Assembly (NCBI GenBank): GCA_965225805.1
Contig: OZ245327.1
Coordinates: forward strand, 1,604,603-1,668,602
Direction of reading: 5' to 3'
Origin: Longimicrobiales bacterium
GTDB lineage: Bacteria; Gemmatimonadota; Gemmatimonadetes; Longimicrobiales; Gaopeijiaceae
DNA length: 64,000 bases
Below, piece by piece: positions 19,641-63,814 of the stretch; position 1 is the stretch's first letter; every line of letters begins with the position of its first letter. Below the pieces are notes generated by a model. The model made no database searches. It saw only the letters and a program-made list of their open reading frames with translations, and had not been told where the DNA came from. Position numbers and translations under genes: made by a program.

Positions 19641-19671
19641 CTTTCGATTCCTCCGATTGATGGACTGCACG

Positions 19672-46149: not shown

Positions 46150-46240
46150 GGCGCGCCGTTTCCGTCTTGGGGGTCAGAGGGGGCACGGCCCCCCGCCAGC
46201 CCCTCCGGGAGACACACGAAGTGTGGCCACGGGGGGTAGG
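46150..46240 (-). promoter_or_regulatory. oriT-like region, copy 2
   Basis: The reverse complement carries GTGGCCACACTTCGTGTGTCTCCCGGAGGGGCTGGCGGGGGGCCGTGCCCCCTCTGACCCCC. Confidence 0.5.
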
Positions 46241-46381
46241 CGGAACTCCAAGGCCGCGAATCACGGCAGGAAATCACGTAAGTCTAATCAGGACTGCACG
46301 ATCTGCGTTTCTTTCCGTTGGATCGCGACGGGTTCCACCCTGCGTCAATGGCGGGGAAATCGCCATCGAGTGGCGGGAATT
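46241..46381 (-). repeat. junction element copy D
   Basis: The reverse complement reads AATTCCCGCCAC...CCAACGGAAAGAAACGCAGATCGTGCAGTCCTGATTAGACTTACGTGATTTCCTGCCGTGATTCGCGGCCTTGGAGTTCCG and abuts the oriT region. Confidence 0.8.
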
Positions 46382-49600: not shown

Positions 49601-49896
49601 TCGGTTTCGCTGTGGCAGGTGGGGTCGTGGCCGGTGCCTCGGGGGATGAGCCAAGACTCGACGAGTGGCTGGTGAAGAAGGGCCGTCTGCGGGCCAGGGC
49701 CGCGAGAGTTGAGATCCCCGAAGCAGAGAGCGAGGGAACGACGGACCTGGAATCGCCCGAATCGGTGGGCGACGCTCCTGAGCGTAAGACTGAGGACTCC
49801 GCGGTGCGTGCTCCCGTCCTGCCCCGAACCGGGGCGAAGATCTGGAGGATGTTGCGTCGACTCGAACAGCGGGGCTTCACGTCCTTCGTCGAGTGA
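46642..49896 (+). CDS. McrB-like AAA+ (AAA_5) NTPase with an N-terminal extension of about 640 aa
   Basis: FAILTGVSGTGKTSLA (Walker A), FFVVLDEMNLARVEHYFSDFLS (Walker B and the McrB-type MNLA block), FFTGTVNVDETTYMFSPKVLDRAF. The N-terminal 640 aa are unassigned. Confidence 0.8.
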   Translation: MLSNDDIRFGNTRGRPVRFFRVQVSWDGGQTFVPALVMRGDVGDGQDRNKRPFTVAWAATSELERRVVAALGRVEHGYSAKDTKNALRGLLRHIPRDYVPTDSRVPEDLEKRIAESPWRLENRYGPLKAWEQEADSAALRRAVMTDRADVPGKDRLLSLVRSRYPGWLGFSDPRFDGGLYDEVQYKLETVAKAKELLSKQALRSLIDAGDHGEMIERLKVIGRDTNLLFRPYSPGGDLDLLYHAGLEHRVFCEAFLSLLHGDDDAPHRLDRYSDQVRSMGLPPNVNRWAMPTYFLFFLYPNEEVLIKPGTVRTLLDLGGWGGKLGVEPSGEEYVRVRTAYSDLREALEKHEPRHMIDVQGFAWVAVQEAKERAKAAKRARETGDEQDPRIDRAMEEFEREADAHDLIRQQKLLEQAQVRFREIFGTVSKIKSLSPDGFFDLFNELDARNSRSTGLFRLGLSFPKNRNTQAYRDLEDDLPTFRRALVELLYGAGSEAESLDRMWEIGRVRGRVRNYITESLIMPSALLFLQDPTKWSSVMKMEVKEKKVALAGIAPVLADDASLGERFVALERALIQLPPKYGRNHWTPMTISAFYFNQDVERHFDGPPRPKPRPSPRSLTSLIQSLEDCGLRFSRETVANYVLALQTKQFAILTGVSGTGKTSLAIEVARYFGLRAEDPDALSSKNAADSGDGHYTVVPVRPDWVDNRGLLGYYNPLTNDYSPTPVLRLLLRARAERKRAQEEERKPSPFFVVLDEMNLARVEHYFSDFLSAMESGEAVPLHHDPSVERREMQASGSSRSDADASVPIPMTLKVPDNVFFTGTVNVDETTYMFSPKVLDRAFTCELNEVDLRSYESGRGDDGPNELTLDALRPLGRSHRGEPSEVQGKRSQSGWKPNRHDWLEFCKLSGGRFRDRLLELHGVLEGEHRHFGYRVANEIARFVLLAHAQSSNKDIAVEAAFDLAVLQKVLPKFHGTQQELEPLLRRLLGFAVAGGVVAGASGDEPRLDEWLVKKGRLRARAARVEIPEAESEGTTDLESPESVGDAPERKTEDSAVRAPVLPRTGAKIWRMLRRLEQRGFTSFVE

Positions 49897-51650
49897 TCGC
49901 CCACGCCTACTCCACCGGCAACATCGCCGTCCGCCGGTGGGATGCCGGTCCGGACGGACCAGAACATGCTGGCCCCGTTCCCCAGCGGTTGCAGACCGAA
50001 TGGAAGTGGGTCGTCGAGGCACCGGAGAAAGCGCTGGACGACATGGCGCACGCGTTGCCAAGAACTGCGTTCACCCGACCCGCGAACAGAGTGCTCATCC
50101 TGGACTTGGTCAACTCGGTAGGCATCCTCGACCTTCCGCACATCGGGCAGGTGGAGCTCGTAACGGGGAAGTTCCACGAGGACGACTTCGAGGCGATGCT
50201 TCGAGACATCACCGAATGGTCGGCCGCTCTGCCTTTCTCAGCCGATCAGCCCGCTTCGTTCCGCTACGCCAACAGTAGGGTACTCCGTGACGAGATCCTC
50301 TACCATACCTTCGTCTATCTTCGCCACGTCCTCTCCGACCGCGCTCCCCGATCGTCCCGTTTGATGCCTGCGCTAAAGAGGATTCACATGGAGCCCCACC
50401 GAATCTGGCTCACGGATCGCCACGAGGTGCGGATCGAGACCGCCTCCCGGGTCGACTCGCGTACCCTCATAGACCTGATTGCGCGGGGCGGACGACCGGT
50501 TTCCGAGGCGTCCCTGTCGCCGAAGGGAAGAGCGCTGGCCGAGCGGTTGGGCATGCGACTCCCCGAAGTGGTCACGGAACGGAGGATCAGGGCCACGACC
50601 GATACCCAGGAGAACCGGTTCGTGAAAGCCTTTGTCCACCAAGCCACCGGGATCATCGCGCGGATCCGGTCGGCGACCGAGGCTCGCCGCCCGACATCGT
50701 TCAGCACGCGCGTGCTGCGAGACTGCGAGCGAATGACGGAGTCGTTGACCCCGGTCGTTCGGCATCCGATGTGGAAGGAGGTGGGACGGATGACCAGAAT
50801 CCCGTTCTCTTCCACCGTCCTGCAACGCCATCGCGGATACCGGCGGGTCCTCAGGCATTGGGCGAGAATCAGGCTGGCCCCGCGAATCCCGCTGAACCGG
50901 GACGAGATGCGCGACATGCTGGAACTCAAGAACATCGCGCTCCTTTACGAACTGTGGACGTTCCATCGCCTCGCGTCCTGCATCAATCAGTTGGTAGGAC
51001 CCCCCAAACAAACCGGTCGGATGATCGGCGATGACTTCCAAGTGGATCTCGCAAGGGGAGAAGCGTTCGAGTGGGCTTCTGGAATCCGGTTGGCGTACAA
51101 CCCCACGTTTTCTCGCCGGGCCGCTCATGTCCCGAATCGATCCTATTCCGTAGAACTGCGACCCGACGCTGCCCTCTGGATTCCGAGTGGAGTGAACCGC
51201 GGAATCCATCTCTTCGATGCCAAGTTTCGGCTTCGCTCCCTCTCCGAAGCCGGGGCGACGGAATCCTCGGGCGGTGCCACAACCGAGAAAACCGACGAGA
51301 GGAGAGGCAACTTCAAGCGAGCCGACATCTACAAGATGCACACCTACAGGGATGCGATTCAGGGCGCCCGCTCCGTGTGGATTCTCTATCCGGGCAGCGA
51401 GTTCCGTTTCTTCACCGCCTCCGGTAGAGGCCGAGTCACGTCCCCAGGAGGGTTGCCGGACGCGCTACTGGGGGTGGGAGCGATCCCGCTGGTGCCGAGT
51501 CGCGAAAACGGGGCGGCGAGCGTTCGGTCGGGCGTAAGCGGGCCGCTGGAAGCAACGCTTCGGCGACTGTTGGCGTCAGGGAAAGACCGAGGCTCTCCCG
51601 AGTGGCACTCGTCTTCTACGACGCACTCGAAGGTGCCGACATCGGTGTAG
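49893..51650 (+). CDS. McrC-like / DUF2357-type PD-(D/E)xK nuclease partner
   Basis: GTGA overlap with the upstream gene. IHLFDAKFRL...ADIYKMHTYRDAI...VWILYPG resembles the McrC nuclease core (D...DAK...Y.m..Y). Confidence 0.7.
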   Translation: MIAHAYSTGNIAVRRWDAGPDGPEHAGPVPQRLQTEWKWVVEAPEKALDDMAHALPRTAFTRPANRVLILDLVNSVGILDLPHIGQVELVTGKFHEDDFEAMLRDITEWSAALPFSADQPASFRYANSRVLRDEILYHTFVYLRHVLSDRAPRSSRLMPALKRIHMEPHRIWLTDRHEVRIETASRVDSRTLIDLIARGGRPVSEASLSPKGRALAERLGMRLPEVVTERRIRATTDTQENRFVKAFVHQATGIIARIRSATEARRPTSFSTRVLRDCERMTESLTPVVRHPMWKEVGRMTRIPFSSTVLQRHRGYRRVLRHWARIRLAPRIPLNRDEMRDMLELKNIALLYELWTFHRLASCINQLVGPPKQTGRMIGDDFQVDLARGEAFEWASGIRLAYNPTFSRRAAHVPNRSYSVELRPDAALWIPSGVNRGIHLFDAKFRLRSLSEAGATESSGGATTEKTDERRGNFKRADIYKMHTYRDAIQGARSVWILYPGSEFRFFTASGRGRVTSPGGLPDALLGVGAIPLVPSRENGAASVRSGVSGPLEATLRRLLASGKDRGSPEWHSSSTTHSKVPTSV

Positions 51651-51842: not shown

Positions 51843-52097
51843 AGCCAGCATACCCTGTACCCTTTGCAAATGCTTCGCGTTAGATCGAAAGATTCTAACA
51901 ACAGCGGCAGGCTACCAGGCCGGGAGTAACCACAGCATACCTGTGCCACCGAGCACCTACGGGGGAGTTGTACCCCGGCCCGGAAGCCGCGATGGATGCC
52001 CAGTGGGGAGTTTGCGCCATCGAGCGCCAGTACAGGGATTGGCGGGCATCGCGGCAGAGCCTTCGCTGTCAAGTGACACCTTCACACGGGAGGAAGC
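51843..52097 (+). ncRNA. candidate IS110 bridge-RNA locus (left non-coding end)
   Basis: 255-nt non-coding leader, matching the decayed copy at 35991..36245 wherever compared. In IS110-group elements this end is known to encode the guide (bridge) RNA. No fold was computed here. Confidence 0.3.
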
Positions 52098-53348
52098 ATG
52101 GTAGAACCCAAGGCTTGGTTCGCCGGCGTGGACTGGGCGTCGGAAGCGCATCACGTCTGCGTAGTCGGCGGCGACGGCTCGAAGCGGGCGGAACGCATCT
52201 TCCGCCACGGAGGCGCGGGGCTGGCGGAGATGGCCGAGTGGATCGCCGCCAAGTCCGGAGGGTCCGCCCCGGACATTCCGGTGGCGATCGAAGTCCCGCA
52301 CGGGCCGGTCGTCGAGAGCCTCATGGACCGGGGGTTCGCGGTCTACGCGATAAACCCGAAGCAGCTCGACCGGTTCCGCGACCGCTTCTCGCCGGCCGGC
52401 GCCAAGGACGACAGCCTCGATGCCCGCGTCCTCGCCGACGCGCTGAGGACCGATCTTCGCCACTTCCGGAGGATCGACCCGGTCGACCCGACCGTCATCG
52501 AACTCAGGGCATGGTCGCGGATCGCCGAGGAGCTCACCCGGGACCGCGTTCGCCTGTCGAACCGCGTGCGAGAGCAGCTGTGGCGCTACTACCCGCAGAT
52601 CCTCGAAGCGGTCGGAAGCGTGGTCGAGCCCTGGTTCCTCGACCTCTGGGCCAAGGTTCCGACGCCCGCGAAGGCCCGGCGGGTCCAGCGCCGGACCCTC
52701 GAGAGCCTGCTCAAGCGCCACAGGATCCGGCGGATCACGGCCGACCAACTCGTCGAGATCCTCCGCGCCCCGGCCATCGCCGTCGCACCCGGTACCACCG
52801 AGGCCGCGGTGGCCCACATCCGGAGCGCTTCCGAACGCCTCCGCCTCATACAGCGCCAACTCGCCGACGCCAAGCGGAAGATCGCCCGCCTGATCGACGT
52901 CTTGGCCGGCAGCGAGGACTCCGGCTCCGGCCAACCCGGCGGGCAGCGCGACGTGACGGTCCTCTCCTCCCTGTCCGGAGTCGGCCAGACCGTCCTCGCC
53001 ACGCTGCTCGCCGAGGCCCCCCAAGCGCTGGCGCGCCGGGACTACAAGGCGCTGCGGTGCATGTGCGGCGTAGCGCCGGTCACACGGCGATCCGGCAAGT
53101 ACAAGCTCGTCGTGCGCCGCATGGCCGCCCACGCCCGCCTTCGCGACGCAGTGTACCACTGGGCACGGGTCGCGGTCCAGCTCGATCCCGTCAGCAAGGC
53201 CAAGTACGCCGCCCTTCGCGGGCGCGGCCACGGCCATGCGCGCGCCTTGCGTTCCGTCGCGGACCGCCTGCTCGCAGTCGCCTGCGCCATGCTCAGAACC
53301 CAGACCTGCTACCGGCCTCCACAGCCAGCGGAGGATCATGCGGCCTGA
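52098..53348 (+). CDS. IS110-family transposase
   Basis: 416 aa: FAGVDWASEAHHVCVV (DEDD N-terminus), INPKQLDRFRDRFSPAGAKDD, LSSLSGVGQTVLATLLAE, CGVAPVTRRSGK. Confidence 0.85.
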   Translation: MVEPKAWFAGVDWASEAHHVCVVGGDGSKRAERIFRHGGAGLAEMAEWIAAKSGGSAPDIPVAIEVPHGPVVESLMDRGFAVYAINPKQLDRFRDRFSPAGAKDDSLDARVLADALRTDLRHFRRIDPVDPTVIELRAWSRIAEELTRDRVRLSNRVREQLWRYYPQILEAVGSVVEPWFLDLWAKVPTPAKARRVQRRTLESLLKRHRIRRITADQLVEILRAPAIAVAPGTTEAAVAHIRSASERLRLIQRQLADAKRKIARLIDVLAGSEDSGSGQPGGQRDVTVLSSLSGVGQTVLATLLAEAPQALARRDYKALRCMCGVAPVTRRSGKYKLVVRRMAAHARLRDAVYHWARVAVQLDPVSKAKYAALRGRGHGHARALRSVADRLLAVACAMLRTQTCYRPPQPAEDHAA

Positions 53349-53432
53349 TCTCCCCCCTGGACGCGGGGTTACAGGCCCGCTTCAGGAACCGTTGACTAAT
53401 GGTGGGGAGTCCCACAACGGCAACGGCGCGTC

Positions 53433-53700
53433 ATGAGCGCTGGACGCGCCGTGTGGGTGAAGGTCCGCGTGAGCGACGCGGAGCGTGTGCCGAGTGGCAC
53501 GCCAAGGCGCGCTCGGTGGGCTTGACGCTGTCGGATCTGGTCGTCGGCGGCCACAAGGCGGCTGCCGAGGCGGTCGAGCTCGTCGCCCACCTGGTCGTCA
53601 TCGGGAGAGCGCGCTCCGGGCTCGCCGACCAGCCGGGGCTGATGCAACGCGCCGACACATGGCGGACGGTTCGCCTCGCGGGAGTCCTCTACCAATGATT
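53433..53700 (+). pseudogene. mobC remnant (2-nt insertion plus internal deletion of about 30 codons)
   Basis: MSAGRAVWVKVRVSDAERV then a frameshift (GAGCGTGTGCCGAG versus GAGCGTGCCGAG in copy 1). The next frame reads AEWHAKARSVGLTLSDLVV-GGHKAAAEAVELVAHLVVI. Confidence 0.75.
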
Positions 53701-54268: not shown

Positions 54269-55342
54269 GTGCCATACCAGCGAGTGAAGGTATTCGACTT
54301 CTTCTCTGGTTGCGGCGGGGCCAGCCGTGGTTTCCAGGACGCCGGAATGGACATCGTGTTCGCTCTCGATTGGGACGCGGACGCCGAGCGGACCTTCCAA
54401 CGGAATTTCCCGTCATCCGCCTTTGAGTCCAAGGACATTCGGGAGGTGGAGGAGGACTCCGTCCACAAGCTTGTGGTCAAACACCGGCCGCATCCTGTTC
54501 TCTTCTGCGGATGTGCCCCTTGCCAGCCGTTCACCAAACAGAACACCATCCGTCCCGAACCCGAGGAGGATGAACGGGTGCCGTTGCTTCTCGATTTCCT
54601 GCGGTTCATCCGAAGGTGCGAGCCCGACATCGTGTTCGTCGAGAATGTCCCGGGTATCCAGAACGTATCTCCTGACTCCGAGCCGCTCGCCGGGTTTCTT
54701 CAGGGATTGAAGGACGCTGGATACCCCGGTCCGGCACGCGCTTCGGTACCCTTGAGGCGGTACGGAGTCCCCCAGAGCCGCCGCAGATTTCTCCTGCTCG
54801 CGAGTCGACACGGACCGATCGAACTCCCACCCGAGACCCACGGTCCGGGAACGCCCAACCCGGAATTCGCCACGGTGCGCGACTGGATCGGAGACCTTCC
54901 CAAGATCGACGCCGGCCAGAGCCACCCGGAGATTCCCAACCACCGGGCGGCCGGCCTGTCCTCGCTCAACGCGAAGCGCATCAGGGCAACCCCGGAGGGC
55001 GGTGGCAACAGGGATTGGTTGGAGGAGGATCTTCGGCTGGAGTGCCACAAGAAGGCCACCGGATACAGTGATGCCTACGGTCGTATGTCGTGGGACCGGC
55101 CCGCCTCCGGTCTCACGACACGATGCATCAGCTATTCGAACGGCCGATTCGGCCACCCCGACCAGGATCGTGCGATCAGCGTCCGGGAAGCCGCGTGCCT
55201 TCAGACATTCCCGATGGGTTTTCGCTTCTCCGGTAGCCTGAACTCGATGGCTCGGCAGATCGGCAACGCGGTGCCGGTGCGTTTGGCGACCATTGTTGGA
55301 GAGCACGTCGCCAGACATCTGGTCGCGGCAGGCGCGACCTGA
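54269..55342 (+). CDS. dcm: DNA (cytosine-5)-methyltransferase
   Basis: FDFFSGCGGASRGF (motif I), GCAPCQPFT (PC catalytic motif IV), ENVPG (VI), QSRRRFLLLAS (VIII), QIGNAVPV (X). The start is GTG 54269 or GTG 54284. Confidence 0.9.
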   Translation: MPYQRVKVFDFFSGCGGASRGFQDAGMDIVFALDWDADAERTFQRNFPSSAFESKDIREVEEDSVHKLVVKHRPHPVLFCGCAPCQPFTKQNTIRPEPEEDERVPLLLDFLRFIRRCEPDIVFVENVPGIQNVSPDSEPLAGFLQGLKDAGYPGPARASVPLRRYGVPQSRRRFLLLASRHGPIELPPETHGPGTPNPEFATVRDWIGDLPKIDAGQSHPEIPNHRAAGLSSLNAKRIRATPEGGGNRDWLEEDLRLECHKKATGYSDAYGRMSWDRPASGLTTRCISYSNGRFGHPDQDRAISVREAACLQTFPMGFRFSGSLNSMARQIGNAVPVRLATIVGEHVARHLVAAGAT

Positions 55343-58317
55343 TGGCGATGGACGTAAGCTTCAAGGCCCGGGCCAGGACGCTGGACATGCTGGGGAGACA
55401 GCAGATCGCCGGCATACCCACCGCCATCAGCGAGCTTTTCAAGAACGCGTACGACGCAGACGCCGAGCGGGTGGAGGTGGACTATTACCGCAGCAACAGA
55501 CTCTTTGTGCTGCGGGACGATGGTTTCGGGATGGAAGCGGAGGAATTCGTCGAGCGATGGCTCACCATCGCTACCGAGACCAGCGTCAAGCGGAAGCGCG
55601 CGGAAAGGCGGCTCCCTCGGTCGGAGAAGCGCACCAGGCCCGTACTGGGGGAGAAGGGAATCGGTCGCCTCGCCATCGCTACAATCGCTCCTCAGGTGCT
55701 GGTGCTCACCCGCGCCCTTCGCGACGGCGTCTTGTCCGATCTCACAGCCGCCTTCCTGAACTGGAGGCTCTTCGAGTGCCCCCGGCTCGACCTCCAGGAT
55801 ATCCGGATTCCGCTTCGCACGTTTCCAGGCGACAGTTTGCCCGACAGCGAGGACGTGGCAGACATGGTCGGCTATTTCCAGAGCCGGAACGCACACCTTC
55901 GGGAGCAAGTCGACCCGAGCGAATGGGACCTGATCGAGACCGACCTCGCGCGGTTCGCGGTCGATCCTCTGGACATGGCCGATTTTTTGGGTGAGCCGAC
56001 GCTTCTCGCCGGGGGTCACGGTACGCACTTCTACCTTCTCCCCGCGTCCTCCAACCTAGCCTATGACATCGCTGGGGATACAGATTCCGATGTCGCGCCG
56101 CCGATCCAGAGAGCACTGCTGGGATTCACCACCCCCTCAATGGCGGGCCGTGCCGAACCGGTCATCCGCACCGTCTTTCGGGACCACAGCACTGACGGAA
56201 TCTGCGAAGACCTCATCGGCGGACACGAGTTCTTCACTCCCTACGATTACGAGAACGCGGATCACCAGGTCTGGGGACGATTCGACGATTACGGCCAGTT
56301 CAAGGGCAACGTCTCCGTCTACGCAGAGACCGTGCACGACCATGTGATCAACTGGAGCGGAGGCAAGGGACGGAAAACGGCTTGCGGTCCCTTCCGCATC
56401 AGGTTCGCCGCAATCGAAGGCGCGGCCAGATATTCGACCCTTCCGCCCGCGGAACACGGTCGCATGCTTGAGAAGACCAGAAGAATCGGTGGCTTGTACA
56501 TCTATCGGGACGGCGTGCGCATTCAACCCTACGGAAACACGGACTACGACTGGCTGGAGATCGAGCTGCGCCGGACGAAGAGCGCGTCGTACTACTACTT
56601 CTCGTACCGGCAGATGTTCGGAATGGTCGAAATCGATTCCACCCACAACAGAGGTCTTCAAGAAAAAGCGGGTCGTGAAGGCTTTCGCGCCAACAAAGCC
56701 TACCGTGATCTGCGCGACATTCTGAAGAGTTTTCTCGTCCAGATCGCCGCCGACTTCTTCCGCGAGGAGGGAGTTCAAGGCGAGAGGTTTGCGAGTCGCA
56801 AGCGGGAGTTGGACGAGACCGAGCGACATCGGCGTGCGCGAGCCAGGCAGGTCACCGCCAAGCGCGGCAAGTTCAAGAAGGACTTGGCCGCGTTCTTCGA
56901 CCGAATGGAGATGGAGAAACCGCTTGAGAGAGTCATGGCACTGGGACTGGAGGCCGAGTCGCGTGTAAGGGAGGCCGGCCGCGATCCGGACCGCGCGAGG
57001 GCGGCCAGGCGGATCATCAAGATCGAACGCGATGCAAGGAGAGACCTCGGGGATCTGGAGGCCCGCTACCGGGTTTCCAAGCCGAGGATCGGCATGACCC
57101 GGGCCTTGCAGAAGGAGTGGAGAGACTATCGGGAGGCGTTCGAGGATCTCGTCGGCAGCGTGCGGGACATCCGCGACTCGATTGAGAGTGTCGTCACGAA
57201 GGAGGTGACCAAAGCGGGGGTTGACGTGAGTGCCAGAGAGCGCATGGAATCGGCTCTCACCGAGATCGGACAATCTGCGAGGCGCGACACGAAGGCGGGC
57301 CGGAGAGAAGTGGAAAAGGTGGCCGAGGAGATCTGGACCGGCACGCGAACGATAGCGAGCCAATGTGTGCGAGAGGTCGAGTCGACGATTCGCGCCGTGA
57401 TGGCCGACTTCGCTCGGCGTGATCTTCAGGGCATGGACGACCAGCGCCTGATCGCGGAACGTTCGGGCCTGGAGGCGCGGATCCGCGAGGCACTGGAGAA
57501 CGCCACCCTCACCCTCGACTCCTTGCGCTCGCAACTGGCGGCCATCGACTTGAAGGGCAAGTCCTCTCTCGTGGATCAGCTCGCGGCGGTGGAACAGAGC
57601 AACGTCACCCTAAAGGAACAAGCGGCGGCCGACCTCCAGCTCGCCCAGCTCGGCATGGCGATCGAGATCATCAGCCACGAATTCGGGGCCGCCATCCGAT
57701 CCGTCCGATCGGGGCTTCGTAGCCTCAGGAGATGGGCCGACGTGAACCAGGAACTGATGTCGCTGTACCAGGGCATCCGCGGCAGCTTCGACCATCTCGA
57801 CGGTTACCTGACTCTCTTCACGCCCCTCCAGAGAAGGCTTTACAGAAAGGCGGTGGACATTCGCGGCTGGGAGATCCACGAGTTCCTGGCCAACCTGTTC
57901 GGCCAGCGGCTGGCCAGACACAACGTCGAACTGACCAGGACCGAGGCGTTCGCCAGCGCCGCCGTTCGAAGCTATCCATCATCCTTCTACCCGGTGTTCG
58001 TCAATCTCGTGGACAATGCGATCTATTGGCTTTCCGGCCAGAACGAGCGCCTTGAACGACGAATCGAGCTTGATGCGTCGGGCAACAGGTTCCGCATCTC
58101 GGACTCGGGTCCCGGGATCCACACCCGGGATTGCGACGACATCTTCGACATCGGGTTCACTCGCAAGCCGGGAGGTCGCGGCATGGGGTTGCATATCGCG
58201 AGGGCAACGCTGCGCGAGATTGGCTATGACCTGAACCTTGAAGCGAGCGAGCCGGGCCATGGGACGACATTCCTGATCGCACCGATCGAGGACGAGGACG
58301 AAGAGACCGATGCCTAG
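55342..58317 (+). CDS. double GHKL protein: N-terminal MORC/Hsp90-like ATPase head + coiled coil + C-terminal histidine-kinase core (DHp + CA)
   Basis: The ATG overlaps the dcm TGA (TGATG). Head: ELFKNAYDA, DDGFGM, GEKGIGRLA. Tail: IEIISHEF (H-box, His codon 57676..57678), NLVDNAIYW (N), DSGPGI (G1), GGRGMGLHIA (G2). No TM or PAS/HAMP seen. Confidence 0.75.
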   Translation: MAMDVSFKARARTLDMLGRQQIAGIPTAISELFKNAYDADAERVEVDYYRSNRLFVLRDDGFGMEAEEFVERWLTIATETSVKRKRAERRLPRSEKRTRPVLGEKGIGRLAIATIAPQVLVLTRALRDGVLSDLTAAFLNWRLFECPRLDLQDIRIPLRTFPGDSLPDSEDVADMVGYFQSRNAHLREQVDPSEWDLIETDLARFAVDPLDMADFLGEPTLLAGGHGTHFYLLPASSNLAYDIAGDTDSDVAPPIQRALLGFTTPSMAGRAEPVIRTVFRDHSTDGICEDLIGGHEFFTPYDYENADHQVWGRFDDYGQFKGNVSVYAETVHDHVINWSGGKGRKTACGPFRIRFAAIEGAARYSTLPPAEHGRMLEKTRRIGGLYIYRDGVRIQPYGNTDYDWLEIELRRTKSASYYYFSYRQMFGMVEIDSTHNRGLQEKAGREGFRANKAYRDLRDILKSFLVQIAADFFREEGVQGERFASRKRELDETERHRRARARQVTAKRGKFKKDLAAFFDRMEMEKPLERVMALGLEAESRVREAGRDPDRARAARRIIKIERDARRDLGDLEARYRVSKPRIGMTRALQKEWRDYREAFEDLVGSVRDIRDSIESVVTKEVTKAGVDVSARERMESALTEIGQSARRDTKAGRREVEKVAEEIWTGTRTIASQCVREVESTIRAVMADFARRDLQGMDDQRLIAERSGLEARIREALENATLTLDSLRSQLAAIDLKGKSSLVDQLAAVEQSNVTLKEQAAADLQLAQLGMAIEIISHEFGAAIRSVRSGLRSLRRWADVNQELMSLYQGIRGSFDHLDGYLTLFTPLQRRLYRKAVDIRGWEIHEFLANLFGQRLARHNVELTRTEAFASAAVRSYPSSFYPVFVNLVDNAIYWLSGQNERLERRIELDASGNRFRISDSGPGIHTRDCDDIFDIGFTRKPGGRGMGLHIARATLREIGYDLNLEASEPGHGTTFLIAPIEDEDEETDA

Positions 58318-59905
58318 CAATGGCTTTACCGAGCACTGTCGAGAGATCGCCCGGCGATTCCTCCTGACAGCGATCGTCGTTGATGACGAACTCTCGGTTC
58401 CCGCGGACCCACCCGTCCACGGCGATCTGACGGCTCCAGAGCGGAGCGCACCGGTGCGACGCGGGCCAACATCGGTGAACCCCCAGCTCCATCCCCGCCG
58501 ACCGCTCAAAATCGACCCGATCACATGGTCTTTCGCCCGCCAAGGCATGGTTTGCGGCGTGATGTCACCCGAAGGAAGGCAAGACGACCTTGGCGCCCTC
58601 GCCAATGCCGTCGCTCGTGCGGACATCGTCATTCTGGACTGGCGGCTGAGCCGATCTAGCGGTGCGAACGCGTTGCCGTTGTTGAAGCGAATCCTGACAG
58701 AGGATCAGCCGAACCGGCTTCGCCTGATCGCTGTCTATACGGGAGAACCCGACCACGAGGCGATTCGCGAAAAGATCGCAGACGGTCTGAACAGCCTCGA
58801 TACCTCCGATCAGGCGGTATCGGCAGGAGATAGCCACCGTGGTCGGATCGACTTCCGGGCCTGTCGTATCGTCGTATACGGGAAACCCGGTTCTCTTGCC
58901 CCCGAGCGGAGGAGAGTCAGGGAAACAGCGTTGGCCGACCGGCTCATCGGCGATTTCGCGGAGATGGTCGAGGGGCTATTGCCCAGCTTGGTTCTGACGG
59001 CATTGGCTGCGGTCCGAGACAACGTGTACCGTGTACTGGAGCGCTTCGGGCGGGACTTGGATCCGGCCTTCCTGGTACACCGCGCCTGTCTCCCACAGCC
59101 TCCAGAATCGGAGCAGCACATCGTCGAACAGATCGCCAGCGAACTCCACGGGATCATGGACGATGTGGTAGGCAGGACGAGTCCGGCGGGAATCGAGGCG
59201 ATCGAGCGGTGGATCGGCGATCGCTTCGGGAATGACGATGTCGTGTTCGGTCCGAAACACAAGGCGGCCACGCCCATCGTCCTTAAGATGCTGAAGGATG
59301 GACTGAAGGAGCAACCCGGACCTCTAGGCCTCGGAAAGTACCACCTTCTCTCGCATGGGCTTTCGGGCGGCCTTGCCATGAGCCATGAGCTTGATCGCCG
59401 TCTCGCGTCGGCGATGGACTTGAGACAGGTGGTTGCGGACACTGAGCGGCAATTGTCGATGGGGACGGTTGTCCGCCAGACCGGAGACGAGGGTTCAGCG
59501 CTCCTGTGCGTCACACCGAGATGCGACAGCGTCCGATTGACCGGTAAGTCATCTTTCCTCTTTCTTCCTCTGTCAACTGCGAAGGAAAACACGCCGCAGG
59601 TCGTGGTCCCGACTGACGACCGCGGTTTCCGCCGCATGACCATAATCATGAATCCATCGCAGTGGCGTATTGAGGACTTCGAGCCCGAACCAGCCCGGCA
59701 GTGCGTCCTCGCACGCCGCAGTGGGCCGGATCAGCCTTTCACCTTCAAGGATGTCGCTGGCGCAGCATACCGTTGGGTGGGAGAGCTGAAGGCGGAAGTC
59801 GCGCAGTCCATTGCCCAAGGGATCGCGGAGAGAATGTCCCGGATGCCCCTAAACAGGTCGGAATGGCTCAGGCGGTCGGCGCGCGTTGGAGAGCGAGCAA
59901 GGTAA
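58310..59905 (+). CDS. REC (receiver) domain protein with an unassigned C-terminal region of about 340 aa
   Basis: 8-nt overlap with the upstream gene. LLTAIVVDDE (acidic pocket), ADIVILDWRL (phospho-acceptor Asp codon 58637..58639), LIAVYTGEP, IVVYGKPG (conserved Lys-Pro). I recognise no motif in residues about 190-531. Confidence 0.65.
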   Translation: MPSNGFTEHCREIARRFLLTAIVVDDELSVPADPPVHGDLTAPERSAPVRRGPTSVNPQLHPRRPLKIDPITWSFARQGMVCGVMSPEGRQDDLGALANAVARADIVILDWRLSRSSGANALPLLKRILTEDQPNRLRLIAVYTGEPDHEAIREKIADGLNSLDTSDQAVSAGDSHRGRIDFRACRIVVYGKPGSLAPERRRVRETALADRLIGDFAEMVEGLLPSLVLTALAAVRDNVYRVLERFGRDLDPAFLVHRACLPQPPESEQHIVEQIASELHGIMDDVVGRTSPAGIEAIERWIGDRFGNDDVVFGPKHKAATPIVLKMLKDGLKEQPGPLGLGKYHLLSHGLSGGLAMSHELDRRLASAMDLRQVVADTERQLSMGTVVRQTGDEGSALLCVTPRCDSVRLTGKSSFLFLPLSTAKENTPQVVVPTDDRGFRRMTIIMNPSQWRIEDFEPEPARQCVLARRSGPDQPFTFKDVAGAAYRWVGELKAEVAQSIAQGIAERMSRMPLNRSEWLRRSARVGERAR

Positions 59906-59923
59906 TTTGCTGGCAGGTGCCAC

Positions 59924-60367
59924 TCACACCTCCGATCCCTTGACGGCCTCCCCTTCCTCCGGTCGCAGGAACCCGGCAATCCGTCTGGCCACCACCGCGA
60001 CATCCGTCGTCTCGCACTCCCAGATCACCATTACCCGCCAGCCGAGGTCGTGCAGGGCGGTCTCGTTGCGCCGGTCGCGGATCACGTTCCCTTTGAACTT
60101 GTCCTCCCAGAACTGCACACGGGTCTTGGGGCTTGAGGCGTACTTGCAGCCGGGATGCCGATGCCAGAAACATCCATGCACCATGATGACGGCCCGATGG
60201 CGGGGGAGCACGATGTCCGGGGAACCTGGAAGACGCTTGCAGTGCAGGCGGAAGCGGAAGCCGAGTCTGTGAGCGATCCGGCGGACGATCATCTCCGGCA
60301 TGGTGTCGCGGCTGCGGATCCGGGACATCATCTCACTTCGTGTTAGGCTGTCGACGATGTCGGTCAT
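59924..60367 (-). CDS. vsr: very short patch repair endonuclease
   Basis: RSEMMSRIRSRDTMPEMIVRRIAHRLGFRFRLHCKRLPGSPDIVLPRHRAVIMVHGCFWHRH...FWEDKFKGNVIRDRRN...GWRVMVIWECE. Convergent with the REC gene, stops 18 nt apart. Confidence 0.9.
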   Translation of the reverse strand: MTDIVDSLTRSEMMSRIRSRDTMPEMIVRRIAHRLGFRFRLHCKRLPGSPDIVLPRHRAVIMVHGCFWHRHPGCKYASSPKTRVQFWEDKFKGNVIRDRRNETALHDLGWRVMVIWECETTDVAVVARRIAGFLRPEEGEAVKGSEV

Positions 60368-60906: not shown

Positions 60907-61895
60907 TCAAATCCCGCCCCCGGAGAAGCGGCTCGAAACCCATACCGAATAGCCGTGGATCATTCCTCCGGGGAGGCCCGATCGGAGCAGAGCCCTCATC
61001 TCAACGAGGCGGTGAAGGCAGCCGTTGAGACCGCCCAATTCCTTGACCGCCGCGTCGTCCATTCCCCGGATGGCATTCTCGACGCGCGCAATCTCGCGCC
61101 GGACGGCTGCGATGGTCTTGGGCTGCTGGTTGGGCTCTTGGGCGGTGGCGGCGCCGACCCAGTTTCCCAGGATCGTCCGTGCGCGTTCGAGTTCCCTCCG
61201 ACCGCCTGCGACCCTGGCGACCTCGACCGACAGGCTCTGCTCCCTCAGCGCTTCCCATAGCCCATGGTGCCGATCCCGCCACGAGCGGAGCGCGGTCGAG
61301 GTGTCGTAGCCGGGATCGGCGGGCACGAACACGGCGCGGCTGGAGTCCAGCGCCACGGGCATCCCGCGGGGAAGTACCGCCGCGCGCCCCCGGCGGCGCC
61401 CCGGTAGATCCGGACGGGCAGGAGCGAGCGACTGATGTCGAGTACCTCGAACGCGGCGACCTTCTCCGCCTCGGTGGGCAGCCAGGGCAGGCCGGTGTGC
61501 TCGATCACGTAGTCGAAGGAGAGCAGGCGGCGCATGGCCACCTCGGGCGAGGTGATCCTCCGGTGGCGCACACCTTCGGCACCCAGTGCGCGGTAGATGC
61601 CGCGCGCGCAGATCCGGCAGACCTTCAGGTCTCCGACCATCTCCTCGGCGGCCAGCCTTCGGTCCCTCAGGCCCTGCACGAACCGGAGCGCCGTGAAGCG
61701 GCTGACCCCGAGCCACGCAGAGAACTGCTTGCGGGTGAACACGCCTCCGTGCAGGCTCGCCAAGGCGATCCACTCGGCGCGGCGGCCCGTCAAGCCGAAC
61801 GGCTCCAGCGCCTTCTCGCGCCCCTGTAGATGGTCGATCACCAAGGCCGCCGTTGGTCGAGGGCTTTGCTGTACATGAGGGTTCCCAATTCCCAC
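60907..61895 (-). pseudogene. winged-helix (replication-relaxation-like?) protein, frameshifted in a C-run near 61368
   Basis: Frame 1 reads ...GVFTRKQFSAWLGVSRFTALRFVQGLRDRRLAAEE...LPVRIYRG...RYFP. Frame 2 continues RGMPVALDSSRAVFVPADPGYDTSTALRSWRDRHHGLWEAL... The family call is tentative. Confidence 0.4.
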
Positions 61896-62131
61896 GGGCG
61901 CACCCTGGTTCCGTGGTCGGGACCGAGAACCGTGGAGGTTGTCACTGCCGACAGAATCGGAAGAGGGCTTGCGGCGGCGTCAAGTCGCGTATGCGGGCCA
62001 TAGTCCCGAGCCGTCCGGTGCCGTCCCGGACGCGGACCTGCTTCCGGCAGCGCTCCTCCATCGCTTTCGAGAAGCCAACAGCGCGGGTATCGCACTGGTC
62101 AAGCCGCCTTCGTCCAGCGAGATTCCTTCGC

Positions 62132-62147
62132 GCAGATCGTGCAGTCC
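62132..62147 (+). promoter_or_regulatory. conserved 16-mer GCAGATCGTGCAGTCC upstream of the integrase start
   Basis: 18 nt upstream of ATG 62165. Context ...GAGATTCCTTCGCGCAGATCGTGCAGTCCATCAAGAGAGGAATCGAATGATG. Confidence 0.4.
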
Positions 62148-62164
62148 ATCAAGAGAGGAATCGA

Positions 62165-63331
62165 ATGATGGCACGCACGAAACGAAGTCGGCGCTCCTAC
62201 GGCGCTGGCGAATGGGGCCGGAACCGGGTCCGGGTGTTTCCGGATGCCAAGACCGGCATTTTCCAGATCGAGTGGCGAGAGAACGGGCGCAGGCTCACCC
62301 GGTCCCTCAAACACCGCGACTGGTCGCGCGCGAAGCGGCAAGCGGACGAGTTCGCCGCGGGCTTCGCGGGGCCGGGCCTGAACGGCGAGGCCGAAGCCGA
62401 GCCCGAGCCGCTCAAGCTGGGATCGCTTTTTGACATCTACGGCGAAGAGGTGACGCCCACGAAGGGGAGACGGACGCGCCAGCGCGACTTGGTCGCGACC
62501 AGGATGTTCCTCCGCTTCTTCGGACGGGACCGAAGACCCGAAACACTGTCGCAGCGCGACTGGGATCGGTTCATCCGGGAACGGCGCGCGGGCAGGGCCG
62601 GACGCTCGGGCAAGCCCGTAGGCAACCGGACGATCGAATGGGACCTGACGTTCCTGATGACGGTGCTCAACTGGGCCGCAAGGTCAAGGGACGAACACGG
62701 ACGGCTGCTCCTCGACTCCAACCCGCTCAAGGGCCTCAGAAAGCCCAAGGAGAAGAATCCCAACCGGGTCGTCCTCACCGAGGACGAATACTAGGCGCTG
62801 CTCGGGGTTTCCCGGCAGGTCGGCTGGCGGTTCCATGTCGCGCTCGTGCTCGCGCACGAGACCGGGCACCGGATCGGTGCCATCCGCGAGCTCCGTTGGG
62901 ATGACATCGACATCGAGGGCCGCGAGGTCCGGTGGCGCGCGGAGCACGAGAAGACCGGCTACGAACACGTCACGCCCCTGACCGCCGAGGGGGTCGCCGC
63001 CCTGGAGGAGGAACGAAGCAGGAGCGAAGGAACCAAGAATGGCCCGGTGCTGCCGTCGCCGAGGGATGCCACGCAGTGCATGAGCCGCGTTGCCGCCCAC
63101 AAGTGGTGGAAGAAGGCGGAGACCCTCGCGGGACTGGAGCCGAGGCGGGGACGGGGCTGGCACTCGCTCCGTCGCAAGTTCGCTTCCGATCTCATGGACC
63201 TGCCGCTCAAGGTGCTTTGCGAGCTTGGCGGCTGGAAGAAGGCCCAGACGGTGCTGCGCTGCTACCAGCAACCCGACGCGGTACAACTCAGGAAGGCTCT
63301 GGACAACCGCCGCCGCAACGGTCGGGCCTGA
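62165..63331 (+). pseudogene. island integrase with a single in-frame TAG (62792..62794)
   Basis: MMARTKRSRRSYGAGEWGRNRVRV...VVLTEDEY*ALLGVSRQVGWRFHVALVLAHETGHRIGAIRELRW...GWHSLRRKFASDL. Both ORFs (61853..62794 and 62846..63331) are in the same frame. Confidence 0.8.
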
Positions 63332-63814
63332 TCCGAATCGGCGGGAACCAATCGGCGAGAATCAGGCCCGCCAAGCCTGTAACTCCAAACTCTACAGTCA
63401 GATGCAGACTTCATAGCATTTGCGGGGTAGGCTGGCTCTCCGGCCTTAAGGGCGTCCGACAAGCCCGTCGCCGACGTGTCCGAGACCCGGCGGCGGCCGG
63501 CGCCGATGCGGTGGCGGCGCACCCCCGCAAACGCTCCGGGAAACCCGTTCAACGGGCCTCGCAAAGCGCGGCCGACGGCGGGATGGAGGCCCGCGACGCC
63601 GGGCCGTCCATGTACCTGCGAAGCCGGAGCGGCAACTGATCCCCACCAGCGCCCCTGTCGCGGGACACGGGCGTCAGTTACGCCGTGGATGGATCAACCT
63701 GAACTACGCGTCTCCTCCCGCGTTTCGCCTCGTTTGGTCGTGCTGCCCTTCACACGCTTCGGTGACCCGAAGGGAAACACTTTGCGGATTTGATCCGCAA
63801 TTGGTTTCAATCCG

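What the first reader, a model, noticed from the sequence alone, without database searches (positions are those of the whole stretch)
54269..60367. dcm -> double-GHKL histidine kinase -> REC-effector <- vsr: a two-component phosphorelay in the slot where a Dcm/Vsr cassette normally holds a restriction enzyme
**Seen directly**
- Three co-directional genes have start/stop overlaps (TGATG at 55340..55344; 8-nt overlap at 58310..58317).
- A convergent vsr gene ends 18 nt after the last of them.
- dcm shows all the canonical C5-methyltransferase motifs, and vsr is unambiguous.
- Between them there is no recognisable endonuclease, helicase or McrBC-type gene.
- Instead there is a 991-aa protein with two Bergerat ATP-binding modules, the second preceded by a proper H-box.
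- It is followed by a 531-aa protein that opens with a complete receiver domain (acidic pocket DD, phospho-acceptor Asp, Thr, Lys-Pro).

**Established knowledge**
- dcm/vsr pairs classically flank or accompany restriction genes.
- MORC-like GHKL ATPases have been noted in restriction-modification contexts.
- A defensive two-component system (Detocs) exists.

**Inference**
- The cassette may be a methylation-coupled defence system. The GHKL head would sense DNA status or invasion.
- The kinase core would phosphorylate the REC protein, whose unknown C-terminal domain would be the effector.
- Dcm would provide self-marking, and Vsr would repair the 5mC deamination cost.
- I do not recognise this four-gene architecture as any named system.
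- It sits as cargo between a mobC remnant and an integrase, the same slot that holds an OLD nuclease in the sister element.
Basis: partly seen in the sequence, partly recalled or inferred. Interest (0 to 1): 0.9.

Follow-up and report, generated by a model that had tools for sequence, protein, structure and literature searches.

The report
Published methylase-linked two-component cassette
The four genes are real and form a tightly conserved unit, but this cytosine methylase, MORC-like histidine kinase, receiver protein and Vsr cassette was described in 2021 and has its own Pfam families, so it is a further, still untested, example of a known predicted system.

Summary

The architecture is not new. 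The kinase hits HATPase_c_3, HEF_HK (PF19191) and HATPase_c. The receiver protein hits Response_reg_2 (PF19192). Both families were defined by Bellieny-Rabelo et al. 2021 (PMC8011034) from exactly this gene pair. That paper reports 91.6% linkage, a C5-methylase upstream, and Vsr most often directly downstream.

My own survey of 79 genomic loci agrees:
- 63 of 73 assessable loci carry an intact dcm-kinase-receiver trio.
- 7 more have the kinase or receiver gene disrupted with dcm intact.
- None keeps an intact kinase and receiver without dcm.
- vsr is accessory (45 of 79 loci, in three positions).
- No other gene, and no recognisable nuclease, is consistently linked.

All catalytic residues of both ATPase modules, the H-box and the receiver are invariant.

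What I add: the receiver protein's uncharacterised C-terminal part models as a helical domain plus a beta-barrel. That barrel resembles MazF/PemK toxins in fold only. It has no sequence-profile support and lacks the MazF catalytic motifs.

Function remains untested. The most likely reading is a methylation-gated, phosphorelay-driven defence or addiction module carried on a mobile-element defence island.

The parts
54269..55342 (+). C5 cytosine DNA methyltransferase (dcm). Its stop overlaps the start of the kinase (TGATG).
   Evidence: Pfam DNA_methylase 2.5e-49 and TIGR00675 127 bits. Motifs FSGCGG, PC, ENV and GNAV are present. It is 39-83% identical across 70 syntenic loci, usually more conserved than the receiver protein.
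55342..56781 (+). Kinase residues 1-480: MORC/MutL-like GHKL ATPase head plus a conserved region taken to be the S5-type transducer.
   Evidence: HATPase_c_3 at residues 27-125. The best NCBIfam hit is the N-terminus of the BbrUII/HgiDII restriction enzyme family, at 82 bits against a 550-bit cut-off. The profile hits MutL and Hsp90 N-domains in the PDB. Invariant residues are E31, N35, D38, D59, G61, G63, G103-G108 and K378. The S5 assignment is inferred from motifs and was not modelled.
56782..57621 (+). Kinase residues 481-760: poorly conserved, Arg/Ala/Glu-rich helical linker, probably a coiled coil.
   Evidence: Mean identity is 0.44, against 0.60-0.74 elsewhere in the protein, and the Pro+Gly fraction is 0.06. 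There are weak hits to Dynamin-like helical and apolipoprotein entries.
57646..57846 (+). HEF_HK dimerisation/phosphotransfer (DHp) domain, with phospho-acceptor His779 at 57676..57678.
   Evidence: PF19191 4.1e-27, covering the full model length. H779 and E780 are invariant in 26 sequences.
57985..58278 (+). Catalytic ATP-binding domain of the histidine kinase (HATPase_c).
   Evidence: PF02518 3.2e-18. The profile hits ThkA (3a0r, 4e-12), ZraS and HK853. N888, D891, N892, G923, G945, G947 and G949 are invariant.
58358..58891 (+). Response_reg_2 receiver domain of the 531-aa protein, with phospho-acceptor Asp110 at 58637..58639.
   Evidence: PF19192 4e-33. D25, D26, D110, T144 and K192 are invariant in 36 sequences down to 25% identity.
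58895..59905 (+). Uncharacterised C-terminal module of the receiver protein (residues 196-531): a helical domain plus a beta-barrel with a MazF/PemK-like fold (about residues 380-510, 59447..59839). This is the candidate effector.
   Evidence: There are no Pfam or PDB sequence hits. The AF2 model has pLDDT 79.7 and pTM 0.72. The top Foldseek hits are MazF in the PDB (E 2e-3, probability 1.0, TM 0.5-0.62) and PemK/MazF in BFVD. hhalign against MazF gives probability 0.2%. Invariant residues are G385, C400, C405, D406, F416, W489 and W519.
59924..60367 (-). Vsr very-short-patch-repair endonuclease, convergent with the operon and 18 nt from the receiver gene's stop. It is an accessory member of the cassette.
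   Evidence: Pfam Vsr 4.2e-27 and TIGR00632 129.6 bits. It is present in 45 of 79 related loci, in three different positions.

Best explanation
This is a typical member of the published HEF_HK / Response_reg_2 'two-component-like' module, which travels with a type II C5 cytosine methyltransferase and often with Vsr.

**Shown**
- The three co-directional genes are a conserved, translationally coupled operon.
- The kinase carries a MORC/MutL-type GHKL head, a long helical linker and a complete histidine-kinase core.
- The partner protein carries a complete receiver domain.
- Every residue needed for ATP binding, His autophosphorylation and Asp phosphotransfer is invariant.
- No separate nuclease is linked.

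**Inferred mechanism**
1. Dcm marks host DNA.
2. The dimeric GHKL head engages DNA, as MutL, MORC and the GHKL-headed HgiDII/BbrUII restriction enzymes are thought to do.
3. The nucleotide-driven dimerisation state of the head is passed down the coiled coil to the DHp bundle.
4. Encounter with unmarked (foreign, or newly unprotected) DNA therefore switches His779 autophosphorylation.
5. The phosphate moves to Asp110 of the receiver protein.
6. This releases the receiver protein's C-terminal helical and MazF-fold module to act as the toxic or restrictive effector.
7. Vsr, where present, repairs the T:G mismatches caused by 5-methylcytosine deamination.

I put identity as a member of the published family at about 0.95. 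I put the defence/phosphorelay mechanism at about 0.45.
For: **Family identity**
- Pfam HATPase_c_3 + HEF_HK + HATPase_c on the kinase, and Response_reg_2 on the partner.
- PMC8011034 defines these families from this gene pair. It reports 91.6% linkage, a C5-methylase upstream and Vsr directly downstream.

**Unit of selection**
- 63 of 73 loci have an intact colinear trio across many phyla.
- 7 more have the kinase or receiver gene disrupted with dcm intact.
- 0 have an intact kinase and receiver without dcm.

**Catalytic competence**
- Motif residues are invariant in both GHKL modules, the H-box and the receiver.
- The C-terminal half of the kinase matches solved histidine kinases.

**No other effector candidate**
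- Flank clustering finds only type I R-M, Schlafen/AlbA_2, integrases and transposases as recurrent neighbours.

**Defence context in the window**
- An OLD nuclease, a PDC-M26A-like protein with a McrC-like partner, relaxases and integrases.

**Precedents**
- Detocs shows that a His-Asp relay can drive a defence effector (10.1101/2023.01.24.525353).
- GHKL-headed proteins occur in R-M operons together with Dcm and Vsr (PMC2292703).
Against: - No experiment on any member appears in the searched literature.
- The receiver protein has no hit in PADLOC-DB v2.0.0.
- No nuclease or other catalytic motif is recognisable in its C-terminal module.
- The MazF resemblance is fold-only (Foldseek E about 2e-3, hhalign probability 0.2%). 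MazF's conserved Arg/Thr positions have no conserved counterparts.
- No domain that reads cytosine methylation was found.
- The asymmetry 'kinase or receiver broken, dcm kept' is not statistically significant. Given the target sizes, seven random hits would miss dcm with P of about 0.2.
- According to PMC8011034, 34 of 222 family kinases lack the GHKL head. The head therefore cannot be the only sensor.
Confidence: 0.6

Rival explanations
1. Regulatory two-component system. The pair does not kill or restrict anything itself. It senses an intracellular cue such as nucleotide pools or DNA damage, and tunes the activity or expression of the linked methylase or of neighbouring restriction-modification systems. 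This is the suggestion made by the original authors.
For: - The discussion of PMC8011034 proposes signalling cascades that control R-M systems, with the GHKL head sensing NTPs.
- Most response regulators are regulators.
- Type I R-M genes are frequent neighbours: HsdM is present in 23 of 79 loci.
Against: - The receiver protein has no HTH or other DNA-binding output domain in Pfam.
- Neighbouring R-M systems vary and are absent from most loci. Only dcm is constant.
- The tight start/stop coupling with dcm suggests a stoichiometric complex rather than a regulator and its target.
Confidence: 0.17
2. Selfish addiction module. The methylase acts as antidote, and the kinase with the receiver protein's MazF-fold domain acts as a phosphorylation-gated toxin. 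Its main role is to stabilise the mobile element by post-segregational killing. Any phage defence would be a side effect.
For: - The cassette is cargo of an integrative mobilisable element.
- The C-terminal barrel has a MazF/PemK-like fold.
- In 7 loci the kinase or receiver gene is disrupted while dcm is kept. No locus keeps both without dcm. This pattern is classical for toxic restriction partners.
Against: - The fold similarity is weak and lacks MazF motifs.
- The disruption asymmetry is not significant.
- This reading overlaps the best explanation mechanistically. It differs only in the selective purpose.
Confidence: 0.17
3. Chance neighbourhood. An orphan Dcm/Vsr epigenetic-repair pair happens to lie next to an unrelated cytoplasmic two-component system.
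For: Dcm and Vsr do function together without a restriction enzyme in E. coli K-12 (established knowledge).
Against: - dcm, the kinase and the receiver gene are colinear in 70 of 73 assessable loci, from Acidobacteriota to Gammaproteobacteria and Chloroflexota, with overlapping stops and starts.
- PMC8011034 reports 91.6% linkage across 644 regions.
Confidence: 0.01

Closest known systems
HEF_HK (PF19191) / Response_reg_2 (PF19192) two-component-like module associated with type II C5-methylases (Bellieny-Rabelo, Pretorius & Moleleki 2021, PMC8011034)
   Same: - The kinase has the 'group 1' architecture: HATPase_c_3 + HEF_HK + HATPase_c.
- The receiver protein has an N-terminal Response_reg_2 domain and no other known domain.
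- The two genes are adjacent.
- A C5-methylase lies upstream and Vsr directly downstream.
- The proteins are soluble.
- The cassette sits in an R-M / defence neighbourhood.
   Different: Nothing in architecture.
- This copy comes from a high-GC, probably uncultivated lineage. Its closest relatives are Acidobacteriota, Gemmatimonadota and Longimicrobiales MAGs at 60-84% identity. The published set was mostly Proteobacteria.
- The paper did not analyse the receiver protein's C-terminal 330 residues.
Detocs defensive two-component system (DtcA/DtcB/DtcC; 10.1101/2023.01.24.525353)
   Same: - A cytoplasmic histidine kinase is paired with a receiver protein whose output is a non-DNA-binding effector domain.
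- The expected logic is sensor, then His, then Asp, then effector.
   Different: - There is no stand-alone buffer receiver (DtcB).
- There is no PNP / ATP-nucleosidase domain.
- The sensor is a MORC-like GHKL head, not TPR repeats.
- A methylase is obligatorily linked.
- The receiver protein has no PADLOC hit, and the kinase hits only REase_II models.
paraMORC / MORC GHKL ATPases of restriction-modification operons (Iyer, Abhiman & Aravind 2008, PMC2292703), and the GHKL-headed type II enzymes BbrUII/HgiDII (NCBIfam NF050001)
   Same: - An N-terminal GHKL ATPase head with intact motifs.
- Operon partnership with a cytosine methylase and Vsr.
- The best NCBIfam match of the head is the N-terminus of BbrUII/HgiDII.
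   Different: - In those families the head is fused to, or partnered with, a nuclease or helicase.
- Here it is fused through a coiled coil to a histidine-kinase core.
- The NF050001 score is 82 bits against a 550-bit cut-off, and the match covers only model positions 8-115 of 659.
MazF/PemK (CcdB/MazF-fold) toxins
   Same: The predicted fold of receiver-protein residues about 380-510 is a small beta-barrel followed by a C-terminal helix. It was recovered as the top hit in two independent structure libraries.
   Different: - There is no sequence-profile similarity (hhalign probability 0.2%).
- MazF's conserved G-x-E-Q-x-G-x-R-P and catalytic Thr positions are not conserved.
- The family instead has an invariant C-x4-C-D motif.
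- The domain is fused to a receiver and a helical domain rather than paired with an antitoxin.

Membership tests
HEF_HK / Response_reg_2 module (PMC8011034) | Kinase-like protein with a HEF_HK DHp domain, flanked by an N-terminal HATPase_c_3 and a C-terminal HATPase_c | tested here: met
   PF19191 94.9 bits (cut-off 24.1), PF13589 58.4 bits (cut-off 25), PF02518 66.6 bits (cut-off 26.4).
HEF_HK / Response_reg_2 module (PMC8011034) | Partner protein with an N-terminal Response_reg_2 domain and no other known domain | tested here: met
   PF19192 115.5 bits (cut-off 27) at residues 17-194. It is the only family hit consistently in all 36 homologues scanned.
HEF_HK / Response_reg_2 module (PMC8011034) | The two genes are adjacent, with a C5 DNA methylase upstream and Vsr commonly directly downstream | tested here: met
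   There is an 8-nt overlap between kinase and receiver genes. The dcm stop overlaps the kinase start. vsr lies 18 nt downstream and is convergent. The same order holds in 63 of 73 related loci.
HEF_HK / Response_reg_2 module (PMC8011034) | Soluble proteins with no transmembrane segments | tested here: met
   The maximum 19-residue Kyte-Doolittle hydropathy is 1.29 for the kinase and 1.59 for the receiver protein. There is no clear membrane helix. This was a simple scan, not a dedicated predictor.
Canonical two-component phosphorelay | H-box His followed by an acidic residue, plus N, G1 and G2 boxes in the catalytic domain | tested here: met
   H779, E780, N888, D891, N892, G923, G945, G947 and G949 are invariant in 26 sequences at 41-84% identity. 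PDB histidine-kinase hits reach 4e-12.
Canonical two-component phosphorelay | Receiver with an acidic pair, phospho-acceptor Asp, Thr/Ser and Lys | tested here: met
   D25, D26, D110, T144 and K192 are invariant in 36 sequences at 25-75% identity.
Canonical two-component phosphorelay | Actual His-to-Asp phosphotransfer | not testable with these tools
   This needs radiolabelled or Phos-tag biochemistry.
Detocs | Three genes: a sensor kinase, a stand-alone receiver (DtcB), and a receiver fused to a PNP (or other known) effector. All three are required by the published detection rule. | tested here: not met
   No third receiver gene lies in the operon. Pfam finds no PNP domain. The receiver protein has no PADLOC hit, and the kinase hits only REase_II models. 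I did not verify that PADLOC v2.0.0 contains Detocs models.
BbrUII/HgiDII restriction enzyme family (NF050001) | Full-length match above the curated cut-off | tested here: not met
   82.1 bits against a 550-bit cut-off. Only residues 12-124 match model positions 8-115 of 659.
MORC / paraMORC ATPases | GHKL domain with intact ATP-binding motifs, followed by an S5-fold transducer carrying a conserved Lys | tested here: inconclusive
   The GHKL part is met. The S5 part is inferred from strong conservation of residues 131-480 and invariant K378. It was neither modelled nor matched by any profile.
MazF/PemK toxins (for the receiver protein's C-terminal barrel) | Sequence-profile similarity and conserved catalytic Arg and Thr/Ser | tested here: not met
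The positions structurally expected to hold the catalytic residues are variable.
MazF/PemK toxins (for the receiver protein's C-terminal barrel) | CcdB/MazF-type barrel fold | tested here: inconclusive
   MazF entries are the top 11 PDB hits and most of the top 20 (probability 0.93-1.0, TM 0.47-0.62, E only 2e-3 to 5e-2, rmsd 6-7 A). PemK/MazF is the only probability-1.0 hit in BFVD.
C5 cytosine methyltransferase | Motifs I (FxGxG), IV (PC), VI (ENV) and X (GNxV), and a family HMM hit | tested here: met
   FSGCGG at 12, PC at 84, ENV at 125, GNAV at 332. PF00145 168.9 bits and TIGR00675 127.3 bits.
Vsr endonuclease | Family HMM hit above the curated cut-off | tested here: met
   TIGR00632 129.6 bits against a cut-off of 97.85. 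PF03852 94.2 bits against a cut-off of 27.

The most novel reading that the evidence does not exclude
The cassette would be a restriction-modification-like immune system with no restriction endonuclease.
- Self versus non-self would still be set by cytosine methylation.
- The decision would be transmitted by a His-Asp phosphorelay, from a MORC-type DNA clamp to a previously unrecognised, phosphorylation-gated effector.
- That effector would be the invariant C-x4-C-D helical and MazF-fold module of the receiver protein.
- It would act as a toxin or abortive-infection effector rather than by cutting the invader's DNA at the recognition site.

If true, this would be a new effector class. It would also be the first mechanistic link between methylation-based discrimination and two-component signalling.
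Probability: 0.25. Interest if true: 0.8.

Novelty: already known. Interest (0 to 1): 0.4.

Why it matters
As a discovery claim it does not stand. The architecture is in the literature and in Pfam.

As a biological problem it is still open, and it is large. A profile of the receiver protein's C-terminal module finds about 1,600 clusters at 50% identity in public data. The linked methylase is nearly obligatory. No member has been tested, and the receiver protein has no match in PADLOC-DB v2.0.0.

If the phosphorelay really couples methylation status to an effector, it would show three things:
- How MORC-type ATPases signal.
- A new way to build a restriction-like system.
- A second, independent use of two-component signalling in immunity, after Detocs.

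Tried and rejected
- **Sequence annotation of the C-terminal 330 residues.** Pfam at E up to 1 on 36 homologues, and single-sequence and profile searches of PDB sequences, found nothing beyond the receiver domain.
- **Full-length AF2 model.** It was too weak to use on its own (pLDDT 68.6). The domain-only model with a more diverse alignment was better.
- **PD-(D/E)xK, HNH or PLD motifs.** I looked for them by eye among the invariant residues of the receiver protein's C-terminal module. I saw no conserved D...(D/E)xK; E492/K494 vary to Q/N/R in divergent members. The kinase's 131-480 region shows only GHKL/S5-type invariants.
- **MazF homology at sequence level.** Rejected.
- **Other architectures containing the C-terminal module.** All 150 best of 1,597 hits are the same receiver + module protein or fragments of it.
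- **A universally linked extra gene, such as a hidden nuclease.** None exists; the commonest neighbour is type I HsdM, in 23 of 79 loci.
- **The upstream McrC-like pair as part of the system.** Rejected: neither protein occurs in any of the 79 related loci.
- **Viral carriage.** No relatives on IMG/VR contigs.
- **Plasmids.** Only a decayed copy in a Pseudomonas syringae plasmid and one Phocaeicola record.
- **Source organism.** Exact-match contig look-ups and cluster names returned nothing.
- **Promoter and terminator scans.** Uninformative.
Full report
**1. Observation**

The window holds four ORFs:
- 54269..55342 (+, 357 aa)
- 55342..58317 (+, 991 aa)
- 58310..59905 (+, 531 aa)
- 59924..60367 (-, 147 aa)

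TGATG lies at 55340..55344. The start of the third gene lies inside the last 8 nt of the second. The convergent vsr stop is 18 nt from the stop of the third gene. Residue 779 of the kinase is His, followed by Glu. Residue 110 of the receiver protein is Asp.

Pfam hits are far above their thresholds:
- DNA_methylase on the first protein.
- HATPase_c_3 (residues 27-125), HEF_HK (769-835) and HATPase_c (882-979) on the second.
- Response_reg_2 (17-194) on the third.
- Vsr on the fourth.

NCBIfam agrees for dcm and vsr. None of the four proteins has a membrane-helix-like segment.

**2. It is already described**

HEF_HK (PF19191) and Response_reg_2 (PF19192) are not generic families. A full-text search for them returns Bellieny-Rabelo, Pretorius and Moleleki 2021 (PMC8011034). 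That paper built both families from exactly this gene pair. It reports the following:
- 91.6% linkage between the two genes across 644 regions in 628 strains.
- A C5 cytosine methylase usually upstream.
- Vsr genes in 20 genera. The most prevalent arrangement places Vsr directly downstream of the receiver-like gene.
- A predominant kinase architecture of HATPase_c_3 + HEF_HK + HATPase_c (174 of 222 sequences).
- No transmembrane segments.
- A proposed descent of the kinase from the paraMORC ATPases of restriction-modification operons, which Iyer et al. described in 2008 (PMC2292703).

The paper contains no experiments. It says nothing about the receiver protein's C-terminal two thirds. I found no later experimental work on the pair. 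The receiver protein has no match in PADLOC-DB v2.0.0.

**3. Independent check of the synteny**

A scan of species-representative genomes with a profile of the receiver protein returned 79 loci at 26-75% identity. They span:
- Acidobacteriota
- Gemmatimonadota/Longimicrobiales
- Rhodothermales
- Opitutales
- Nitrospirota
- Latescibacterota
- Alpha- and Gammaproteobacteria
- Chloroflexota
- Cloacimonadota
- Spirochaetia

Nearly all are metagenome-assembled genomes.

tblastn with the four window proteins gave the following counts. Of the 73 loci with enough upstream DNA:
- 63 have an intact, colinear dcm-kinase-receiver trio.
- 7 have all three genes, but the kinase or receiver gene is frameshifted or split by an insertion of 1.2-1.9 kb, while the dcm ORF is intact.
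- 3 lack dcm. In all three the kinase is also deleted or truncated at its 5' end.
- None keeps an intact kinase and receiver without dcm.

This asymmetry is what one expects if the kinase and receiver are harmful without the methylase. With seven events it is not significant: by target size, the chance of missing dcm is about 0.2.

dcm is usually better conserved than the receiver protein (61-83% against 36-75% in most loci). vsr is accessory:
- Upstream on the same strand in 25 loci.
- Downstream and convergent in 15, as here.
- Downstream on the same strand in 5.
- Absent in 34.

I clustered all flanking ORFs. No further gene is universally linked. The commonest neighbours are type I R-M subunits (HsdM in 23 loci; two HsdR-type clusters in 13 and 7 loci), Schlafen/AlbA_2 proteins, integrases and transposases. 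The functional core is therefore three genes, and none of them is a recognisable nuclease.

**4. Anatomy of the kinase**

I aligned 26 homologues at 41-84% identity.
- **ATPase head.** Residues 1-480 are strongly conserved. All GHKL motifs are invariant (E31, N35, D38; D59-G61-G63; G103-E-K-G-I-G108). So is a Lys (K378), inside a block (GGLYIYRDGIRILPYG...) that resembles the MutL/MORC transducer region. That last assignment is my inference and was not modelled.
- **Linker.** Residues 481-760 are the least conserved. They are rich in Arg, Ala and Glu and poor in Pro and Gly, which fits a coiled coil.
- **Kinase core.** Residues 761-991 form a complete histidine-kinase core. H779-E780, N888/D891/N892, G923 and G945-x-G947-x-G949 are invariant.

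The alignment profile hits solved kinases for the C-terminal part (ThkA 4e-12, ZraS, HK853). It hits Hsp90 and MutL N-domains for the head. The head's best NCBIfam match is the N-terminus of the BbrUII/HgiDII restriction enzyme family. That match scores 82 bits against a 550-bit cut-off, so it shows relatedness of the head only.

**5. Anatomy of the receiver protein**

D25, D26, D110, T144 and K192 are invariant down to 25% identity.

Residues 196-531 have no Pfam or PDB sequence match. The full-length AlphaFold2 model was mediocre (pLDDT 68.6). A model of residues 196-531 built on a 74-sequence alignment was usable. It has pLDDT 79.7 and pTM 0.72, and the beta-rich part mostly scores 83-96. 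It shows a helical domain (about 205-370), a beta-barrel (about 380-495) and two terminal helices.

The evidence on the barrel's fold is as follows:
- Foldseek against the PDB places MazF toxins in the first eleven ranks and in most of the top twenty. Probability is 0.93-1.0 and target-normalised TM is 0.47-0.62. E-values are only 2e-3 to 5e-2, and rmsd is 6-7 A. The earlier full-length model gave the same family.
- The viral structure library independently returns a PemK/MazF toxin (probability 1.0, TM 0.62).
- The positions where MazF carries its catalytic Arg and Thr are variable here.
- The family's own invariant residues are G385, C400, C405, D406 (a C-x4-C-D motif), F416, W489 and W519, plus D251/A253 in the helical part.

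I therefore call it a MazF/CcdB-like fold of unknown activity, not a MazF family member.

A profile of this module, searched against 1.84 billion representative proteins, finds 1,597 clusters (892 at E <= 1e-30). All 150 best hits are the same receiver-plus-module protein or fragments of it. The module is not seen with another partner domain among those hits.

**6. Context in the window**

The window is a mosaic of integrative mobilisable elements.
- **First element.** It runs mobC-relaxase (13419..15404), OLD-family nuclease (16079..18052), integrase (18480..19670, minus strand).
- **Second element.** A second relaxase (44277..45821, minus strand) is 78% identical in protein. A 131-nt mobC fragment lies at 53411..53541, just before the cassette. 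A related integrase lies at about 62.1-63.3 kb. That integrase has an in-frame stop at 62792..62794.
- **Between the second relaxase and the cassette.** A 1084-aa protein matches the PADLOC candidate PDC-M26A (5e-46). It is followed by a DUF2357 + PDDEXK_7 (McrC-like) protein, and then by an IS110 transposase.

The McrC-like pair is a separate system, because neither of its proteins occurs in any of the 79 related loci. No relatives of the receiver protein were found on IMG/VR viral contigs. Plasmid records hold only one decayed copy and one distant copy.

**7. Mechanism**

What is shown:
- A conserved, translationally coupled three-gene operon.
- Two intact ATPase modules.
- An intact phosphorelay.
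- No separate nuclease.

What is inferred:
1. Dcm marks self DNA.
2. The dimeric GHKL head engages DNA.
3. The head's ATP-driven dimerisation state is relayed through the coiled coil to the DHp bundle.
4. Phosphotransfer to Asp110 gates the C-terminal module, which acts as the effector.
5. Vsr offsets the mutational cost of 5-methylcytosine.

Detocs gives experimental precedent for a defensive His-Asp relay. This cassette fails the Detocs definition, because it has no buffer receiver and no PNP effector.

The main rivals are:
- A purely regulatory role. This is the original authors' suggestion. It is weakened by the lack of any DNA-binding output domain and by the variability of neighbouring R-M genes.
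- An addiction-module role, which differs from my best explanation mainly in purpose.
- Chance juxtaposition, which the synteny excludes.

**8. Verdict**

The functional guess is reasonable but untested. The novelty claim is wrong, because this is a typical member of a published and catalogued kind.

What remains interesting is that a very widespread, methylase-locked phosphorelay has no demonstrated function and no identified effector chemistry. The MazF-like fold and the invariant C-x4-C-D motif are leads for that work.

Noticed in passing
window 46642..51650 (+): A separate two-gene candidate defence system lies just upstream. A 1084-aa protein matches PADLOC candidate PDC-M26A (4.8e-46) and gives a weak AAA hit. 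Its stop overlaps the start of a 585-aa DUF2357 + PDDEXK_7 (McrC-like nuclease) protein. Neither protein is found in any of the 79 loci related to the cassette.
   Followed up: partly
window 61853..63331 (+), stop at 62792..62794: The tyrosine integrase next to the cassette has an in-frame stop codon between its N-terminal part and its catalytic domain (...VVLTEDEY*ALLGVS...). It is either a pseudogene or a sequencing error. Related integrase copies lie at 18.4-19.7 kb and 32.3-33.3 kb.
   Followed up: partly
window 13419..19742 versus 44277..46241, 53411..53541 and 62067..63361: Two related integrative mobilisable elements are present. Their mobC-relaxase DNA is 87.6% identical, their relaxase proteins 78%, and their integrase DNA 79%. 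One carries an OLD-family nuclease (16079..18052; AAA_15 + OLD TOPRIM). A 131-nt mobC fragment is duplicated right after the IS110 copy, which suggests rearrangement by insertion.
   Followed up: partly
window 52098..53348 (+); also 42719..44104 and 35808..36245: An IS110-family transposase (DEDD_Tnp_IS110 + Transposase_20) separates the two defence modules. A 77.5%-identical relative lies at 42.7-44.1 kb. A 438-nt segment that is 99% identical (35808..36245 versus 52280..51843) points to a very recent duplication.
   Followed up: no
window 21402..24725 (-) and 37589..42271 (+): Two very large proteins (1107 and 1560 aa) combine bacterial Ig-like (Big_1/Big_2) domains with long leucine-rich-repeat arrays. 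One also has a weak Peptidase_M66 hit. They are eukaryote-like repeat proteins of the sort often reported in host-associated bacteria.
   Followed up: no
L007, L016, L023, L029, L062, L065, L078 (around 7000..11600 in most of these loci): In seven related loci the kinase or receiver gene is frameshifted or interrupted by an insertion of 1.2-1.9 kb, while the upstream dcm ORF stays intact. In L005, L058 and L060, dcm is missing and the kinase is also deleted or 5'-truncated. The pattern suggests that the kinase and receiver are costly without the methylase. The numbers are too small for significance.
   Followed up: partly
loci L011, L012, L022, L024, L027, L032, L040, L050, L076 and protein P0178: Several related loci come from metagenome bins with names such as APA_bin, COS4_bin, RHO3_bin and CAR3_bin, and one homologue (P0178) is from 'Candidatus Synechococcus spongiarum'. 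From memory these look like marine-sponge symbiont bins. The cassette may be enriched in sponge microbiomes, but I did not test this.
   Followed up: no
L080 (Pseudomonas syringae plasmid pPsy0479a, NZ_ON146836.1, 41745..42750): This is a decayed plasmid copy. RefSeq annotates an 82-aa 'ATP-binding protein' remnant and a truncated 'response regulator receiver domain' protein next to an IS5 transposase. It shows how NCBI names this family.
   Followed up: no
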